This document shows, in pieces, positions 1-12,000 of a stretch of DNA of 21,026 nucleotides. The number at the start of each line of letters is the position of its first letter. The first letter of the stretch is position 1. The position numbers are program-made. Source of the stretch: an uncultured Thermococci archaeon (GTDB lineage: Archaea > Methanobacteriota_B > Thermococci > Thermococcales > Thermococcaceae); NCBI GenBank assembly GCA_964615185.1, contig CAZTOS010000039.1:1-21026 (forward strand), written 5' to 3'.

Positions 1-3000
1 AGACTTCAGAAAGCTCACAATCAATTAATGCGGAGGTTTATAAGAGCTGGCTCCACAATTCCACAGAATATTTTGAAATCTACTATCCAGAAGAGGTTTA
101 CAAAAATCCAATATTACAATCAAAGCTCAATATGCTCCTTCTCGGTGCAGACAGCACATATGAAAGCTATTCCAAGCTTTTTGGAGGCAAACCACATAAA
201 GCAAAGATATATCTATATCCATCAAAAGACAGCTTGAAAAGCATCACAGGGAAAAATACGCTCTGGTTCGTAGATTACCAGAGAAGAGAAATTCACATTG
301 CATTGATAGAAGAAAGCGGCATGTACTCCTCGTTTGAAATTGTTTCAGCGCTTTTGGAATTTGCGGCAGGTGAAAAGCTTCCAGATGTACTCGTCATTGG
401 GTTTGGAGTGCTGAACTTCAGAATACCAAGGAACCCTCAAGAAAGCTACGTGAGCATAGAGCAACTGAAGTCCTTAGACCTAAGAAAAGAATACAATGAA
501 ACCTTGTATGCTGAAGCTGGGGACTTGCTAAGGTACATTGCAGATACTTATGGCCCACAAGCTCTCATAAACACATTAAAGAATGGAAACATTCCAACTG
601 TCAATGAAAAGGATTTCCTTGAATTTTTGGAGACTGAAGATCACGAAACAAGCAACATAGAAAAAACGACAATAACTCTGAACATAAGCATGGAGCAGAA
701 AAAGTTTGAGGGAGCTGTAATTTACAGCAACGTTACCTCACAGCCGTACATCTATTTCAGAAGAACACCAAGGATTGACATCAAAGAGATTAAAGTGAAC
801 GGCGAAAATGTTGACTTCATTCAGAGCTTTACAGTGGTCATTCCAGCAAAGAACTTCAAAAAAGGAAGCATAGAAATTAAATACAGTGGGGACTACTCAA
901 AAATTGAGAAAATAGCACCCAAAAGAGGATACATAGAGGGACAAATTAAGGAAGATATTGCATTTTTAAGGGGCACATTTCTGCGTCCCATGCTGAACTC
1001 CGTTGAGCTGTTTAACGTCATCGAAGTTAGAGCCAAAACTGACAAGGGAACAGTTATAGCTCCAGGCGAACTGATTTCTTCCAATGTCTGGAGAATTTCA
1101 TTTCCTCAAGGATTCAGCGGTGTGATTCCAGTTTTTGCTGGAGAATTCAAGAAAATAGAGCTGATGAACGGTTACTTAACGGTGTATTACATGGATATTG
1201 ATGAGGAAACCGCAGAGAGATACGCCAACCTTACCGCAGAGATTCTGGAGTTCGGAGTGAAATATTTTGGAAAGCCGGGATATGGGAAAGTTAAAGTTGT
1301 TTACCCCAAAGGAATAAGTATCTCGAGTCTAATGCTTGATACTCTGGCATATTCTCACAATCCCGTACGATACAAATATGGCTACGCATACGAGATAGCA
1401 CATTGGTGGGTTCCTGGGACAGTTACATTTGACACAAACATGAGCCAGTTCTGGTTCAATCTGGCTTTCCCATGGTACTACTCTTTAAAATACGCCCAGA
1501 ACATTTCACAGGAAAGTTATCGTGAGCTAAGGAACTATGGGATTTCAAAATATCATAAAGCAACAAGGTATGGAGAAAAAGATGTTCCGTTAACGGAAGT
1601 ATGGAAAGTATGGGGAAGGGATATCAACCTTTATTATGCCGTTGGTGCATATAAAGGAGCCTCGGTTCTTGAGAAGCTTGAAGAGTATGCAGGCAAAGAG
1701 GCATTTTTCCAATCTCTCAGAGAGTTCTTTGAAAAATACAGATTTAGGGAAGGAGATTTAAACGATTTTGTGGCAATATTAGAAAAGAACTCTGGAAAAT
1801 CAGTTAAAGAGCTTTTCCAGAATTTAACAACGAGCACAGGATTGCCTTAGCTATCTGAGTTTTAACCCCTCTGTTAGTCCTTTTTCAACTTTCTTCCCAA
1901 CTTTTGAGTTAACATAAGAATCTAATGAGCACACATGAGCGAATACGTCTTCGAGGGTTACTGTCTCGTTTTGAATGTCGATGACGTCATAATTTGTTAG
2001 GATTGCGAGGATATCCTTCAGATGATCTTGTTTAATGTAGATTTCCAAGTACGTGAAACCGTTTTGAGTATAAACTTTAATCTTCTCTGTTATCCCGGTA
2101 AAGTCATCAACTTCAACTTTGCCCTTGAGTTTGACCAACAGCTTCCTATCTATTTTTAAGGCTTGGAACTTTTCGACTAATTCTTTCGGCTTGCCTTCAG
2201 CGATTTTCTTCTTGTTAAAAATTAGAACTCTATCACATAACACTTCAGCCTCATTCAAATTATGTGTAGTTAGTATTATTGTTGTTCTAAATTCTTTAGA
2301 GAGTTCTAAAATGGCATTCCAGACTTCTCTTCTTGTAAAAACGTCTAAGTAAACTGTTGGCTCATCTAAAATTAAAGCTTCAGGCTGAATTATTAGCGGC
2401 AGTGCAAGATAAACTTTCTGCCTCATGCCTGCAGAAAGCTTTTGATACCATTCATTCCTCTTGTCCTTGAGATTCAAAAGCTCCAAAGCATAGTTAATCC
2501 TCTTTTCAGCTTCAACTTTAGAAATCCCCCAGAGCTCTGCAATAAATTTCAAGTTCTTCTCCACGCTTACACGCCATTGAAAAAGTCCAAACAAATCCCT
2601 CTCCCCACCAAAAATCGTGAATATTCTGCCCTTGATTTTATCATGCTCCCTCACTGAATCATAACCATTGATGTAAAGATTACCCCGAGTCGGAATTACT
2701 AATGCATTGGCAATCTTGCAGAAGGTTGTCTTTCCAGCACCATTAGGACCCAGAAGACCGAAAATCTCACCCTCTTTAACCTTGAAATTCAAATCAATCA
2801 AGGCTGGAATTTCTTCTCTAGGTTTCCCAAGAAAATCTCTCAAACTTTTCAGGTCAAAGAGCGATTTTATTGGTGAGGGATAAAACTTAGTCAAGTTAAC
2901 TGACTCAATCATATGTATTCCCTGTCATTAATTGATGAAATTACTTATAAATATTGCTGTTGTTTTTCTTTATTAATGGTTTCACTTTATTTATAAATAA

Positions 3001-9000: not shown

Positions 9001-12000
9001 AGTTCTTGAATATTATTTTAAGAGGAAACAAAAGGGGGATGAGTATGAACCATGATAGCTAATCTTAAAAAGTGTACCCATGTTGGGAGATGATTGGAAT
9101 CGAAGATTACCAAATTGGAGAGATACAGAAAGATGGAACAATGAAAATTACCCCATTTTATTATGATGTAAAATCTAGGGATCCTACAGAATATGAAGAG
9201 TGTAAGAATTGCAAACTTTTGCCAGTTTGCATGGGAGGATGTCCAATGGAATCAATTCGAAAAAACGGACATCCTAATGGTCCGGGATGCGACATAAATA
9301 AATATGTTTGGAAAGAAGGGTTAAAATTTTATTTAATGAGAAAGTATTCCAACCTATTTAGCAAGGAGAGTCTAATGAAAAATTTGGGTCGAATCCCAGA
9401 TAAAAACGAACAAGTGTGGAACTTCACACTTTCAACAAGAGAATAATAGGCATTAAAAACAACGAAAACAACTGTACACCGAGGTGTTGGATAATGGAGA
9501 GGAAAGTATTTGCTATATTCTTAATCTCTTTTCTTGTGCTTTCTATGGGATATGTTTTATGGGGCAATAAATCAGTTCCATCATCACTAAAACAAGAGAA
9601 ATTGAAACTTTACATTGAATATCCTTCAAGGGTTGAAGAAAAAATTATACATGGAGCTTTTCCTCATTTTCTGACGAATTATTCTGTTATTGCAAACATA
9701 ACTGTTATTACCCTCAATCACCACCTAAAGGTAAGCTGGAATTTTGTAATTAAGGATAGAACTGGAAACAGCACTATACTTTACATAAAGTCTCCAAGTT
9801 TTGGTAAATTAAGCCTGACGCTTGAAGGAAAACAAGTCAACATATCAAAGCTCTCTCGATATTCATTACCTCAGTATTACGCTCAAGTAATACTTTTGAA
9901 TGTAACATATCCAAAGGATATTCCAATACATGGAGCACTGGAGTATGAGACAACAGTGAATTCTTCGTTCACCCAATATATACTCGGTGATTTTGTGAAA
10001 TTTTCCCCAATTTATTATCCCGAAACATATCCTTCCATAATGGTTTTTTCAACTGAGTGGCTTCTTCCGATATCACCTGCAGGAATACTTGTTAACTCAA
10101 ATTCCCTCTATAATCCAATTCCAAAAGTGTATAATCTCACTCTCATTCTTCCTTCAACCTATACCGTACTCTCCGACTATTATCTACCCAAAATAGAACA
10201 CAAAGATAAAAAATTAGTAGTAACATTCAGAAATGTTAAGCTCAATCCCACGAATTACCGGTTCATTTACATTTACAACCATGACCTTTTTCAAAAAACC
10301 GAAATTACTATTAGGAATGCCAAATTAATAGTTTACACTCCAAAGAAAAGTTATTTGGACTTCCAAGAACTCACAAATATCACAGCACAAATAGTCTGGC
10401 ACTATATAAAACGCTTAAGCATGCTTCCTTATCAGGAAATTCATGTATTCTTTAATCCAGATATTATATTTGGAGAAGAATTTGAATACTTTGAGAATGG
10501 AATTGTAGTAGTTGGACTTCGGACACATTATGGATTTTTGGAAAATGAGGGCATTTTACCAACAATTGCTCATGAGCTTGCCCATTTGTGGTTTGGGAGT
10601 TATGCCCATCTTGGTCGACTCGATGAGAGCCTTACCACCTTCATGGAATTTGATGTGGATAAGCTTACTGGTGAAAGCTTGAAAGAAAGAGAAAAACAGG
10701 CAGTAAGGGACTCCAAGCGTTATAAGAGAACGTTGGCTCAAGTTTACCAAGAGGGAATACCTGACCCACAAATAAGACTTGGTGTTGAATATTATAAGGG
10801 TGCTTTTGTCTTCCGCTCTCTTCAGTTTGTTCTTGGCAATGAGACTTTCTTCAAGGGCTTAAGGGAGCTTTTAAGAGAATGCCATAATAAAGAGTGTAAT
10901 TTAACGGATGTTCAAAATGTTTTTGAAGAAGTTAGTGGACAAGATTTAGATTGGTTCTTCAAAGAGTGGTTTTACACTACTAAGGTTCCTGATTACGAGG
11001 TTGGAAACTTGAATTTAGTTCAAAAAAGTGGAAGATATTCCCTGACCTTTGAAATTATTGACAAAAACAACTTCACAATGCCCCTCGAAATTGAGGTAAT
11101 AACATCAAAAGAAAAACTCGTTAAGAAAGTTTGGATTAAAGGGAAAGCAAAGATAAGTTTTGAATTAAATGATAAACCAATAAAGATAACCCTCGATCCA
11201 AACGAATGGATAGTGAACGAAAACAAAAAATATAACATTGAGAGAATAGAGATAATAATTGAGTAATAAGACTCCGTCCTTTTAACCTTCGCTTTTTATT
11301 AATACTATATCAACAATATTAATAAATTCAAAGAAGATCCTGATAACTTTGTAGTAATGTTCTAACCCCCTCTTAACTTTCTCCCCTCCTCAAGCTCTCT
11401 CCTCAAAGTTCTTGCTTCGAACTCCGCTTTCTTTGCCCTAAACACCTTTGCAATTCTCTCAACTGCTTCAAGCTTCCTGATTATGCCGTCAAGCCACGTA
11501 AAGACGTCTCCGGGATAAAGAATTAGGCCATACATCTTTCTAAAATACTCGCTTATCTGAGTTGGATGCCTCCCTTCTCTTCTCAGCTCCATGATGCGGT
11601 CGCTTATTCTGTGCATCGCATACTCAGTGCACTCCTTTTCTTCACACATAAAGAAATCCTGATAAATCGTGAAGAGCCTCTCTTGAGCATTTGGACTAAG
11701 CTCTGGGATAACCCTATCGAGTTCCTCTAAAATCGAAGCAAAGCTTGGGGAAAAAATGTTAGCGCTCAGCCTTCCTCTAACTGCTCCTTCCAGCTCCCTC
11801 TGCAGAGTTCCGCTGAGATAAACATTTTCAAAAGGCGAAAGTTTGATTGCAATCTCCCTCGGACTCTTCTTTGCGAGGTTCTCTCTTATGAACTGAGCCT
11901 CATTTGGCAGTAAGAAGCTCATGCTGACAGCTCTTCCATAAGGTGTAACATTCACGAGCTTGCCCCTGAGTTTAACAAAATCATACTCTTCAAGCTTCTC

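What a model noticed while it worked through the whole genome (the two positions that open the first line are those of the whole stretch)
1851..11266. Cys/Gly-rich peptide with three radical SAM maturases (C39)
A 62-aa gene (C39:3088-3276) has an invariant 17-residue leader (MKIEILKVENGKI-V/I-EPE), a conserved C-x-M-x-G-C-G-G-G-G-G block and a hypervariable Cys-rich tail. It sits directly upstream of three radical SAM/SPASM enzymes, a DUF4932/S-layer-like protein, an ABC ATPase and two M1 peptidases. I read it as the precursor and maturation cluster of an undescribed, multiply cross-linked (thioether-type) RiPP family restricted to a few Thermococcales. If true, it is a new RiPP class from a hyperthermophilic archaeon, with heat-stable rSAM maturases.
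Evidence so far: Gene order: g01511 ABC ATPase; g01512 62 aa with 7 Cys; g01513, g01515 and g01516 (plus the g01517 SPASM fragment), all Radical_SAM+SPASM; g01514 DUF4932+S_layer_C; g01510 and g01518 Peptidase_M1. Island GC is 0.33-0.35. The best Swiss-Prot hits of the rSAM enzymes are only 22-28% identical (anSME, GMGT synthase, TigE). The precursor has 5 homologues in 5.8 billion proteins, among them hypothetical proteins of T. aggregans and T. litoralis. In alignment A1 positions 1-17 are invariant and the tail diverges. It was found in 3 of 98 other Thermococcales genomes, each time next to a 35-37% identical rSAM enzyme. The whole gene set recurs in the same order in G077, G081 and G049. 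There the ABC A [...]
(Added by a program. Inside this text positions count along the whole contig: contig position 1 is position 1 of the stretch shown here. "Call 12" and the like, gene names such as g00115 and contig names such as C1 are that model's own, and its searches are not shown. The text may have been shortened before it was handed on; [...] marks where a part breaks off. The agent that wrote the report below was given it as the finding of a first reader that could run no searches.)

Follow-up and report, generated by a model that had tools for sequence, protein, structure and literature searches.

The report
Archaeal Cys-rich peptide with swappable maturase
A hyperthermophilic archaeon carries a real gene cluster for a small cysteine-rich peptide that radical SAM enzymes probably cross-link, and the peptide's tail and one dedicated enzyme are exchanged together as a cassette between strains while the rest of the cluster stays the same.

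Summary
Window 3088-3276 encodes a 62-aa peptide with 6 Cys (not 7) and 12 Gly. It has a near-invariant 17-residue leader, a conserved C-x3/4-C-G5 block and a hypervariable tail. Three radical SAM/SPASM enzymes follow it, plus a SPASM-only ORF, a DUF4932 protein, two M1-like peptidases and, divergently, an ABC ATPase.

Every curated RiPP-maturase model is missed by a wide margin. The nearest solved structure is 5wgg.

The new result is a mosaic. Against relatives the flanks are 82-96% identical in DNA. The peptide tail plus rSAM-A (and, in three of four comparisons, DUF4932) have no detectable DNA similarity. Five rSAM-A alleles are 33-43% identical; rSAM-B is 75-97%.

A complex model puts leader residues 1-15 on the N-terminal domain of rSAM-A (0.75, best control 0.02).

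DUF4932 looks like an S-layer-anchored HExxH zinc peptidase.

This copy is partly eroded. rSAM-C has a 1-nt deletion, and the cognate ABC permease and regulator are missing.

I read it as an undescribed family of radical-SAM RiPPs, rare and found only in Thermococcales, with a swappable core-plus-enzyme module. No chemistry or expression data exist.

The parts
3..1850 (+). M1a: M1-family peptidase-like protein, 5' end cut by the contig end. It is 666 aa with a lipoprotein-like N-terminus in the near-identical contig L024.
   Evidence: Peptidase_M1 53.2 bits against cut-off 27.7. YEIAH stands in place of HExxH in G000 and in G081, so it is probably non-catalytic. 81% identical to the G081 copy.
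1851..2912 (-). DrrA-like ABC transporter ATPase, divergent from the peptide gene. Its cognate ABC-2 permease and wHTH regulator, present in G077, are absent here.
   Evidence: ABC_tran 85.7 bits; TIGR01188 drrA 220.8 bits, below its cut-off of 312. 91% identical to G077. G077 has permease, MarR-like wHTH and ATPase. The best own-genome match to that permease is 24% identical.
2913..3087 (.). Conserved divergent intergenic region with two TTTATAAAT boxes and an invariant AGTTGCAGTAAAACTTATTTAT block; putative promoters. A copy also stands in front of the type 2 peptide of G081.
   Evidence: 87-90% nucleotide identity to G077, G081 and L025 over 2936-3141/3176. Alignment A2.
3088..3276 (+). Precursor peptide, 62 aa. 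Leader is residues 1-17 (3088-3138), the conserved D/E-M-x-x-C-x(3-4)-C-G-G-G block is about residues 18-32, and the hypervariable Cys-rich tail is residues 33-62.
   Evidence: No Pfam or NCBIfam family matches.
3142..6423 (+). Variable cassette relative to G077: peptide from codon 19 on, rSAM-A and DUF4932. Relative to L025 the replaced stretch is only 3177-4863 (peptide tail, rSAM-A and the first ~30 codons of DUF4932).
   Evidence: blastn finds nothing between 3141 and 6424 against G077, with 82-89% identity on both sides. Against L025 only a weak 68% patch (3956-4164) lies between 3176 and 4864, with 90-96% on both sides.
3332..4771 (+). rSAM-A: radical SAM/SPASM enzyme with an N-terminal RRE-like domain. 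It is the allele-specific enzyme that travels with the peptide tail.
   Evidence: Radical_SAM 70.1 bits. CNFSCSYC at residue 107, C-x14-G-x4-C at 354, CX2CX5CX3C at 412. Best NCBIfam matches are CefB at 148 bits (cut-off 600), TIGR04463 at 139 (525) and PapB at 123 (340). PDB 5wgg E 3e-13. Five alleles are 33-43% identical to each other.
4768..6411 (+). DUF4932 domain with invariant HEFxH...E plus a C-terminal S-layer anchoring domain and an N-terminal hydrophobic segment. Probably a cell-surface zinc metallopeptidase.
   Evidence: DUF4932 60.1 bits (cut-off 28.7); S_layer_C 26.9 (23.9). H236, E237, H240, E283 and E287 are invariant in 6 copies, and H236, E237, H240 and E283 are at least 90% conserved in 45 sequences. 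Model pLDDT 90.7. Residues 357-527 match 9fsa at Z 13.4, rmsd 2.8, 125 aligned. The N-terminal domain matches M1 aminopeptidases at Z 7.0-8.6.
6425..7726 (+). rSAM-B: radical SAM/SPASM enzyme of the conserved frame.
   Evidence: Radical_SAM 82.5 bits; motifs at residues 92, 325 and 382. TIGR04463 at 137 bits (cut-off 525). PDB 5wgg E 2.7e-25. 84-97% identical in G077 and L025; dN/dS 0.14 against G077.
7719..9055 (+). rSAM-C: radical SAM/SPASM enzyme broken by a 1-nt deletion in an A run at 8783-8785. It reads as ORFs 7719-8807 and 8795-9055.
   Evidence: L024 carries one more A at this site. A contig of X4 also carries an extra A there. The gene is whole, at 431-442 aa, in G077, L025, G049 and G057. 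dN/dS of the N-terminal part is 0.06 against G077.
9072..9446 (+). SPASM-only ORF of 124 aa, derived from a fourth rSAM ('D', full length in G081, G008 and G049) but kept under purifying selection.
   Evidence: TIGR04085 SPASM 54.3 bits (cut-off 27). 86-87% identical to G077 and to the C-terminus of G081 rSAM-D. dN/dS 0.08 against G077, from 38 synonymous and 21 non-synonymous differences.
9416..11266 (+). M1b: M1-family zinc peptidase with an N-terminal membrane anchor. The likely real start is the ATG at 9494.
   Evidence: Peptidase_M1 58.4 bits. HELAH-WFG...E is present. 71-81% identical in G077 and G081.

Best explanation
This is a biosynthetic cluster for a ribosomal, post-translationally cross-linked Cys-rich peptide (a radical SAM/SPASM RiPP of the sacti-/ranthipeptide kind). 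It belongs to a small family known only from Thermococcales.

Proposed pathway:
1. The 62-aa precursor is made from a conserved promoter region.
2. Its N-terminal MKIEIL... leader docks as an added strand on the winged-helix (RRE-like) N-terminal domain that all the rSAM paralogues share.
3. The conserved enzymes rSAM-B and rSAM-C act on the conserved Cys/Met/Gly block or on positions common to all alleles.
4. The allele-specific enzyme rSAM-A cross-links the hypervariable tail with which it is always co-inherited.
5. The product leaves the cell through an ABC-2 type transporter.
6. It is freed from its leader outside the cell by surface-anchored zinc peptidases (the DUF4932/S-layer-anchor protein and the M1 peptidase).

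The tail plus rSAM-A (usually with DUF4932) form a cassette that is replaced by recombination, using the leader and the start of rSAM-B or of DUF4932 as homologous anchors. That pattern fits diversifying selection, as in antagonism or kin recognition.

Shown: gene content, motifs, selection on the ORF, mosaic borders, rarity. Model only: leader docking. Inferred: cross-link chemistry, division of labour among the enzymes, export, proteolysis, ecological role.

In this genome the pathway is partly eroded.
For: - Real gene: leader codons show 5 synonymous and 0 non-synonymous differences against G077. There is a ribosome-binding site and a T-rich tract after the stop.
- Enzymes: CX3CX2C plus C-x(n)-G-x4-C and CX2CX5CX3C in A and B, and in C when both frames are read. 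The top NCBIfam matches are all peptide maturases for Cys-rich targets: TIGR04463, CefB, PapB, Clo7bot, SCIFF. The nearest solved chain is 5wgg.
- Leader docking: complex prediction score 0.75, best of 3 controls 0.02. That mark was reached by 116 of 157 solved complexes and 2 of 215 mismatched pairs. The runs agree in at least 31% of contacts and the partner's pLDDT is at least 42. Peptide residues 1-6, 8, 11-13 and 15 touch enzyme residues 30-62 and 340-346. D36 and E38 of that strand are invariant in 12 N-terminal domains of paralogue groups A-D.
- Cassette: sharp borders at 3141/6424 against G077 and 3176/4864 against L025. In L025, rSAM-B is 96.5% and DUF4932 87% identical while rSAM-A is 39% and the tail is different. 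The 10 pairwise identities among 5 rSAM-A alleles are 33-43%. In the 5.8-billion-protein set the rSAM-A clade is 12 clusters at 32-42% identity, while rSAM-B has 13 clusters at 52-87%.
- Peptidases: HExxH...E is conserved in DUF4932, which has an M1-like fold and an S-layer anchor domain. M1b has HELAH.
- Transporter: G077 has permease, regulator and ATPase next to the same promoter.
Against: - There is no chemistry and no expression evidence.
- All curated family scores lie far below their cut-offs, so the type of link cannot be read from homology.
- The complex model may pass from likeness to a solved maturase-peptide complex, and the peptide's own fold is uncertain (pLDDT 42-45).
- This copy has a frameshifted rSAM-C. 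The same state is seen in the Logan contigs of run X1, which may be the source sample. It also has no cognate permease or regulator and only a SPASM remnant of rSAM-D.
- The division of labour between A and B/C rests only on co-inheritance.
- The fold matches of the DUF4932 N-terminal domain are middling (Z 7.0-8.6).
- M1a lacks the first zinc ligand.
Confidence: 0.75

Rival explanations
1. It is the same kind of cluster but a decaying relic in this genome. The peptide may still be made and partly modified, but no finished, exported product is formed.
For: - 1-nt deletion in rSAM-C at 8783-8785. The same gap-free state is seen in a 4373-nt contig of run X1.
- The permease and wHTH regulator found in G077 are absent; the best own-genome match is 24% identical.
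- Only a SPASM remnant of rSAM-D is left.
- There is a transposase fragment and a second DUF4932 copy upstream in L024.
- G081 has rSAM-B split and rSAM-C broken by an inversion.
Against: - The precursor, rSAM-A, DUF4932, rSAM-B and M1b are intact.
- L024, 99.97% identical, has the undeleted rSAM-C, so the lesion is very recent or an error.
- The N-terminal part of rSAM-C has dN/dS 0.06-0.16, and the SPASM-only ORF 0.08.
- X1 may be the source sample, so it is not independent support.
Confidence: 0.3
2. The peptide is not an exported natural product. It is an intracellular Cys-rich metal- or redox-active peptide, or a cofactor precursor, matured by the rSAM enzymes.
For: - High Cys and Gly content and a conserved C-x(3-4)-C block.
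- Type 2 relatives carry 12-13 Cys in 70-77 aa.
- Some rSAM/SPASM systems make cofactors; the hit lists include PqqE and mycofactocin models at low scores.
Against: - A cofactor or housekeeping role does not fit a hypervariable tail with a co-varying enzyme.
- It does not fit presence in only 3 of 98 other genomes of the order.
- It does not fit the three surface-exposed peptidase-like proteins and the ABC transporter in the cluster.
Confidence: 0.08
3. The small ORF is a chance ORF, and the rSAM enzymes act on something else (a protein or a lipid).
For: There is no family hit for the peptide.
Against: - Leader substitutions are all synonymous against G077.
- The ORF is conserved at the same place in every related locus.
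- The ORF has a ribosome-binding site.
- The complex model scores 0.75 against 0.02 for controls.
Confidence: 0.02

Closest known systems
SCIFF/CteB-type and PapB-type ranthipeptide systems (thioether-forming radical SAM/SPASM maturases with an RRE domain)
   Same: Short Cys-rich precursor directly upstream of an rSAM/SPASM enzyme with an N-terminal peptide-binding domain. 5wgg is the best solved match (E 2.7e-25 for rSAM-B, 3e-13 for rSAM-A); that 5wgg is the SCIFF maturase CteB is recalled. PapB, SCIFF, CefB and TIGR04463 models are among the best NCBIfam matches. The leader docks on the N-terminal domain in the model.
   Different: All scores are far below the family cut-offs: PapB 123-127 bits against 340, SCIFF 88-102 against 425. 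The precursor matches no known precursor family. There are three to four paralogous rSAMs per cluster instead of one. The core is hypervariable with an allele-specific enzyme. The host is archaeal and hyperthermophilic. The cluster includes surface metallopeptidases. The link type is unknown.
Sactipeptide clusters with more than one rSAM (for example ruminococcin C) and the subtilosin-like sboA/albA loci reported in Thermococcus celer and T. nautili
   Same: Thioether RiPPs made by rSAM/SPASM enzymes, sometimes by two enzymes (PMC8188230, abstract in the search listing). A preprint reports a sactipeptide-type locus in Thermococcales (10.64898/2026.07.27.741052, passages read).
   Different: The Thermococcus sboA/albA/albC loci are another system, a subtilosin homologue reported from T. 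celer and T. nautili. Here the precursor is unrelated, and the AlbA-type and RumMC-type models score low or not at all.
   Same: M1-type zinc peptidases are encoded with or used by a RiPP pathway to remove the leader.
   Different: Here there are three MA-clan-like proteins, all with N-terminal membrane or lipoprotein-like segments. One is fused to an S-layer anchoring domain and one lacks a zinc ligand. No activity is known.

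Membership tests
Radical SAM superfamily (PF04055) | CX3CX2C cluster motif and a Pfam score above the cut-off | tested here: met
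   A scores 70.1, B 82.5 and C 65.7 bits against a cut-off of 29.5. The motifs are CNFSCSYC, CNFACTYC and CNLNCSYC.
SPASM subfamily (TIGR04085 / PF13186) | C-terminal seven-Cys pattern: C-x9-15-G-x4-C, then CX2CX5CX3C, then a further C | tested here: met
   Both motif parts were found in A (354, 412) and B (325, 382). In C they are split between the two frames (325 in the first ORF, 22 in the second). TIGR04085 scores 34.6 and 54.3 bits (cut-off 27) for ORFs 8795-9055 and 9072-9446.
RiPP maturases with an RRE domain | N-terminal winged-helix domain that binds the leader as an added strand | tested here: inconclusive
   An N-terminal domain of about 85-105 residues precedes the cluster motif in A, B and C. 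D36/E38 are invariant in 12 sequences of 4 paralogue groups. The complex model scores 0.75 against a best control of 0.02, with the leader on residues 30-62. This is a model only and may reflect a solved like complex. No Pfam RRE/PqqD hit was listed.
PapB-family ranthipeptide maturase (NF047865) | Score at or above the curated cut-off of 340; Cys to Asp/Glu beta/gamma thioethers | tested here: not met
   122.6, 127.2 and 63.4 bits for A, B and C. The chemistry is not testable with these tools.
SCIFF maturase (TIGR03974) | Score at or above 425; a SCIFF precursor next to it | tested here: not met
   87.8 and 101.9 bits for A and B. The precursor matches no NCBIfam model.
TIGR04463 and CefB (NF038107) maturase families | Score at or above 525 and 600 respectively | tested here: not met
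   TIGR04463 scores 138.6, 136.8 and 108.7; CefB scores 148.4, 128.7 and 86.9.
Sactipeptide or ranthipeptide class (by product) | S-to-C-alpha (sactionine) or S-to-C-beta/gamma (ranthionine) thioether in the mature peptide | not testable with these tools
   This needs mass spectrometry and NMR of the modified peptide.
DUF4932 (PF16286) | Pfam score above the cut-off | tested here: met
   60.1 bits against 28.7. The Atlas neighbours are DUF4932 clusters.
Gluzincin (MA clan) metallopeptidase, for the DUF4932 domain | HExxH plus a downstream Glu ligand on a thermolysin/M1-like fold | tested here: inconclusive
   HEFxH and E283/E287 are invariant in 6 copies; H236, E237, H240 and E283 are at least 90% conserved in 45 sequences. 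At least 10 M1-family chains match residues 27-478 at Z 6.5-8.6, which is only middling. No sequence match in the PDB.
Peptidase M1 (PF01433) | Pfam score above the cut-off and HExxH-x18-E zinc site | tested here: met
   M1b scores 58.4 bits and has HELAH...WFG...E. M1a scores 53.2 bits but has YEIAH, so the zinc-site feature is not met for M1a.
Archaeal S-layer anchoring domain (S_layer_C, PF05124) | Pfam score above the cut-off and fold match | tested here: met
   26.9 bits against 23.9. 9fsa matches at Z 13.4, rmsd 2.8, 125 of 135 residues aligned.

The most novel reading that the evidence does not exclude
The locus is a recombination-driven diversity system for a cross-linked peptide. A fixed leader and a fixed set of scaffold enzymes (rSAM-B, rSAM-C, the SPASM-only protein) sit beside a plug-in module made of a new core tail, its own deeply diverged rSAM and often its own surface protease. 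Each strain of these hyperthermophiles would then display or secrete a differently cross-linked peptide used for antagonism or kin recognition. This would be an archaeal counterpart of polymorphic bacteriocin loci, but with the specificity enzyme swapped together with the substrate.
Probability: 0.3. Interest if true: 0.75.

Novelty: new variant of a known kind. Interest (0 to 1): 0.6.

Why it matters
No archaeal radical-SAM RiPP product is described in the archaeal RiPP survey passages I read (PMC12144867), and I found no description of this family.

This family offers heat-stable maturases and a natural set of matched pairs: at least five tail and rSAM-A alleles behind one leader, with sharp swap borders. 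That makes substrate specificity in SPASM maturases directly testable by allele exchange.

It also points to a role for DUF4932 domains (a surface zinc peptidase tied to a RiPP pathway). And it gives a candidate for strain-level antagonism or recognition among vent Thermococcales.

Tried and rejected
- Expression: the look-up of sequencing runs listed no RNA holder, so nothing can be said about expression.
- Read laying used Logan contigs only. Run X4 gave no cover over about 3421-5700, and one of its contigs runs on into unlike sequence behind 3068. This is compatible with yet another cassette, but a part without cover is not evidence and no contig joined across it.
- The search of earlier findings was not open.
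- Foldseek against the PDB gave only C-terminal-domain matches for DUF4932 (BcsB, 9fsa) and one weak putative metallopeptidase (4l7a, E 0.09). The wide VIA search was needed to see the M1-like N-terminal domain.
- Sequence search of DUF4932 against the PDB found nothing at E<=1.
- An invertible switch was considered for the 395-nt inverted piece of rSAM-C in G081. No inverted repeats flank it, so I read it as damage.
- The genome-contig scan with the peptide alignment found one locus only, L029, a 3910-base contig of a Thermococcaceae MAG of the same length as G085:C157. It found nothing outside Thermococcales. This scan depends on the exact leader patterns and did not return G077 or G081, so it is not evidence of absence.
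- Literature terms TIGR04463, CefB, Cys-every-fifth and NF038107 returned no relevant paper. DUF4932 occurs in one unrelated paper.
- I could not fetch the contigs of the further rSAM-A clade members P0009-P0020. Their peptides are unknown except where contig lengths coincide (P0003 with P0011 at 3708; P0004 with P0280 at 39914).

Full report
**What is in the window.** ORF listing and family scans give this order.
- An M1-like peptidase at 3-1850 (+), cut by the contig end.
- A DrrA-like ABC ATPase at 1851-2912 (-).
- A 175-nt intergenic region.
- A 62-aa ORF at 3088-3276 (+), preceded by AGGGGGTG and followed by a T-rich tract.
- rSAM-A at 3332-4771.
- A DUF4932+S_layer_C protein at 4768-6411.
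- rSAM-B at 6425-7726.
- rSAM-C at 7719-8807, continuing in another frame at 8795-9055.
- A SPASM-only ORF at 9072-9446.
- A second M1 peptidase at 9416-11266 (likely start ATG 9494).
- A convergent DEAD/DUF5814 helicase.

The rest of the window holds ordinary genes: an Lrp/AsnC regulator, uracil phosphoribosyltransferase, a cupin protein, a phosphoesterase, and a PHO4 phosphate transporter with a PhoU-like protein. GC is 0.33-0.355 over most of the cluster, 0.38-0.39 over DUF4932, and 0.39-0.445 in the flanks.

**The peptide is a real gene.** It has 6 Cys (22, 27, 34, 40, 47, 55) and 12 Gly.

Among 5.8 billion proteins it has 6 relatives, with E from 2.6e-8 to 2.1e-2. Alignment A1 shows MKIEILKVENG invariant. 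The rest of the 17-residue leader is nearly so. M19, C22, M24, G26, C27 and a Gly run are conserved, and the tails cannot be aligned.

Between G000 and G077 the 17 leader codons differ at 5 codons, all synonymous. That is the signature of a translated, constrained sequence. No Pfam or NCBIfam model matches the peptide.

**The enzymes.** rSAM-A, B and C each have CX3CX2C at residues 92-107. Each also has the SPASM motifs C-x(n)-G-x4-C and CX2CX5CX3C; in rSAM-C the two motifs fall in the two frames.

Their best NCBIfam matches are all maturases of Cys-rich peptides: TIGR04463, CefB, PapB, Clo7bot and SCIFF. They score 87-148 bits against cut-offs of 340-600. They are therefore relatives of those families, not members.

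The nearest solved chain is 5wgg, with E 2.7e-25 for B and 3e-13 for A. From memory this is the SCIFF maturase CteB; the call gives only 'Radical SAM domain protein'.

**Leader docking (model only).** I sent rSAM-A (alignment of 16 sequences; the tool used 15 rows) and the peptide (7 rows) to complex prediction.
- The score was 0.75 and the best of 3 controls was 0.02.
- That mark was reached by 116 of 157 solved complexes and 2 of 215 mismatched pairs.
- The runs agree in at least 31% of their contacts.
- The partner's pLDDT is at least 42, so the peptide's own fold is uncertain.

The confident contacts are peptide residues 1-6, 8, 11-13 and 15 with enzyme residues 30-62 and 340-346. A like maturase-peptide complex has probably been solved, so the pass shows likeness and does not prove binding.

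One independent point fits the model. In an alignment of 12 N-terminal domains from paralogue groups A, B, C and D, the only invariant residues after Met1 are D36 and E38, which lie on the contacted strand.

**The mosaic, the main new result.** Protein comparison with the three genomes of the order that carry the peptide gives a split picture.
- Frame genes are well conserved: rSAM-B 84-87%, rSAM-C 80-89%, SPASM-only ORF 86-87%, ABC ATPase 91%, M1 peptidases 71-81%.
- rSAM-A is only 34.5-34.9% identical and DUF4932 37-39%.

At DNA level against G077, similarity runs over 1941-2912 (89%) and 2936-3141 (87%, ending at peptide codon 18). It then vanishes, and resumes at 6424, one base before the rSAM-B start, continuing to 11062 at 82%.

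A metagenome contig, L025, has the same frame at 96% DNA identity (4864-11533), with rSAM-B 96.5%, rSAM-C 98.9% and DUF4932 87% identical. Its tail is different and its rSAM-A is only 39% identical. Its borders lie at 3176 (codon 30) and 4864.

So the smallest unit that is always exchanged together is the peptide tail plus rSAM-A.

The five rSAM-A alleles (G000, G077, G081, L025, L028) are 33-43% identical in all 10 pairs. rSAM-B is 75-97% identical in the pairs available.

The big protein set shows the same contrast. The rSAM-A clade has 12 further clusters at 32-42% identity and at least 94% coverage, followed by a drop to generic maturases. rSAM-B has 13 clusters at 52-87%, followed by a drop to 35% or less.

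**A wider leader family.** G081 carries a second copy of the conserved promoter region. Behind it is a 'type 2' peptide with 13 Cys in front of a full-length fourth enzyme, rSAM-D.

Type 2 peptides occur in 5 of 99 genomes: G008 (99% identical to the G081 copy although in another genus), G081, G011, G087 and G063. A related 70-aa peptide occurs in G049. G008 also has a third type.

All types begin M-[KE]-[IF]-[EY]-[IV]-[IL], which is the part that docks in the model.

rSAM-B orthologues at 72% identity or more occur in 5 of the 98 other genomes: G077, G049, G085, G081 and G057. G049 has A, DUF4932, B and C in order, but no type 1 peptide.

**Accessory proteins.**

DUF4932:
- In 6 cluster copies H236, E237, H240, E283 and E287 are invariant.
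- In 45 diverse sequences H236, E237, H240 and E283 are at least 90% conserved.
- The AlphaFold model has mean pLDDT 90.7.
- Its C-terminal domain (357-527) matches the cell-wall anchoring domain of the Methanococcus voltae S-layer protein (9fsa; Z 13.4, rmsd 2.8, 125 aligned).
- Its N-terminal domain matches catalytic parts of M1 aminopeptidases: puromycin-sensitive aminopeptidase at Z 8.6, tricorn factor F3 at 8.4, and others at 6.5-7.7.
- These Z values are middling but point to one family and agree with the motif.

M1 peptidases: M1b has HELAH...WFG...E and an N-terminal hydrophobic anchor. M1a has YEIAH in both G000 and G081 and is probably not catalytic.

Transporter: in G077 the divergent operon is an ABC-2 permease, a MarR-like wHTH and the ATPase. 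In G000 only the ATPase remains, and the best own-genome match to the permease is 24% identical. The near-identical contig L024 has the same arrangement, so this is not an assembly artefact.

**State of this copy.** L024 is 99.97% identical to window 1-8908. It differs by two substitutions and by one extra A at the run 8783-8785, and that extra A keeps rSAM-C in one frame.

The gene is whole at 431-442 aa in G077, L025, G049 and G057. A contig of run X4 has the extra A. A 4373-nt contig of run X1 has the window's shorter run, but X1 may be the source sample. So the lesion is either very recent or an error.

dN/dS values are as follows.

| Gene | Compared with | dN/dS |
|---|---|---|
| rSAM-C, N-terminal part | G077 | 0.06 |
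| rSAM-B | G077 | 0.14 |
| ABC ATPase | G077 | 0.12 |
| SPASM-only ORF | G077 | 0.08 (38 synonymous, 21 non-synonymous differences) |

The SPASM-only ORF has the same truncated layout in G077 and L025. It therefore looks like a maintained small SPASM protein rather than debris.

Upstream of the window, L024 shows a DDE transposase fragment and a second DUF4932 paralogue. In G081, rSAM-B is split and rSAM-C carries an inverted 395-nt piece without flanking inverted repeats.

**How it most likely works.** My reading follows these steps.
1. The precursor's leader docks on the shared N-terminal domains of the rSAMs (model only).
2. The enzymes form cross-links from Cys thiols by radical chemistry, as in 5wgg-type and PapB-type enzymes (inferred from family resemblance).
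3. rSAM-A handles the variable tail and B/C handle conserved positions (inferred from co-inheritance).
4. The product is exported through the ABC-2 system (inferred; the system is incomplete here).
5. The leader is removed at the cell surface by the DUF4932 and M1 peptidases (inferred; the precedent of M1 peptidases in class III lanthipeptides is recalled, not read here).

The replaceable module and the patchy, cross-genus distribution fit diversifying selection, as expected for antagonism or recognition (inferred).

**Comparison with what is known.** The system works like sacti-/ranthipeptide systems, but it fails every curated membership score.

I found no description of it.
- Searches for Thermococcus with RiPP, radical SAM and precursor peptide, for archaea with ranthipeptide, for Thermococcales with SPASM, and for DUF4932 gave nothing on this locus.
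- A preprint describes a different, subtilosin-like locus in T. celer and T. nautili (10.64898/2026.07.27.741052, passages read).
- The archaeal RiPP survey PMC12144867 mentions rSAM RiPPs only generically and does not mention Thermococcales in its main text (passages read). Its supplements were not examined and may list the locus.
- PMC13692751 and PMC13635244 do not mention Thermococcales (passages read).

**Verdict.** This is a real, rare and undescribed family of radical-SAM RiPP clusters with an unusual swappable core-plus-enzyme module. The copy in this genome is slightly eroded. The chemistry and biological role remain open.

Noticed in passing
window 9072-9446: The SPASM-only 124-aa ORF is a truncated descendant of a fourth rSAM, yet it has dN/dS 0.08 against G077 and the same truncated layout in G077 and L025. 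It may be a maintained stand-alone SPASM (auxiliary Fe-S) protein rather than a pseudogene.
   Followed up: partly
window 3-1850; L024:2389-4389: The upstream M1-like protein has YEIAH in place of HExxH in both G000 and G081. It has a lipoprotein-like N-terminus in the full copy and is probably a non-catalytic peptidase homologue.
   Followed up: partly
L022:16151-16369 (-), L047:1151-1363 (+), L049:3256-3408 (-): Related 'type 2' and 'type 3' Cys-rich peptides (12-13 and 6 Cys) have leaders that start MEFEII, MEFYIL or MKFEVL and sit next to rSAM-D-type enzymes. The G008 copy is 99% identical to the G081 copy although the genomes belong to different genera, which suggests recent transfer.
   Followed up: partly
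L022:6371-6765: In G081 a 395-nt internal piece of rSAM-C (equivalent to window 7926-8320) lies in the opposite orientation to the rest of the gene. No flanking inverted repeats were found. rSAM-B and the neighbouring helicase are also split into several ORFs there.
   Followed up: partly
L024:1-2392 (upstream of the window's contig start): A DDE transposase fragment (109-504) and a second DUF4932/S-layer paralogue (36% identical to the window's copy) lie upstream. The N-terminal extension of that ORF contains a CYSC stretch that may be the remnant of another rSAM gene.
   Followed up: no
window 2913-3087; L022:16348-16522: The intergenic promoter region is conserved at 82-90% across genera and is duplicated in G081 in front of the type 2 peptide. 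An invariant block, AGTTGCAGTAAAACTTATTTAT, may be a binding site for the MarR-like regulator encoded in the divergent operon of G077, G081, G008 and G049.
   Followed up: no
G000:C78:4121-5252 (-): Another rSAM/SPASM-like gene in the same genome appears split into two adjacent ORFs (25-29% identical to rSAM-B). Its context was not examined.
   Followed up: no
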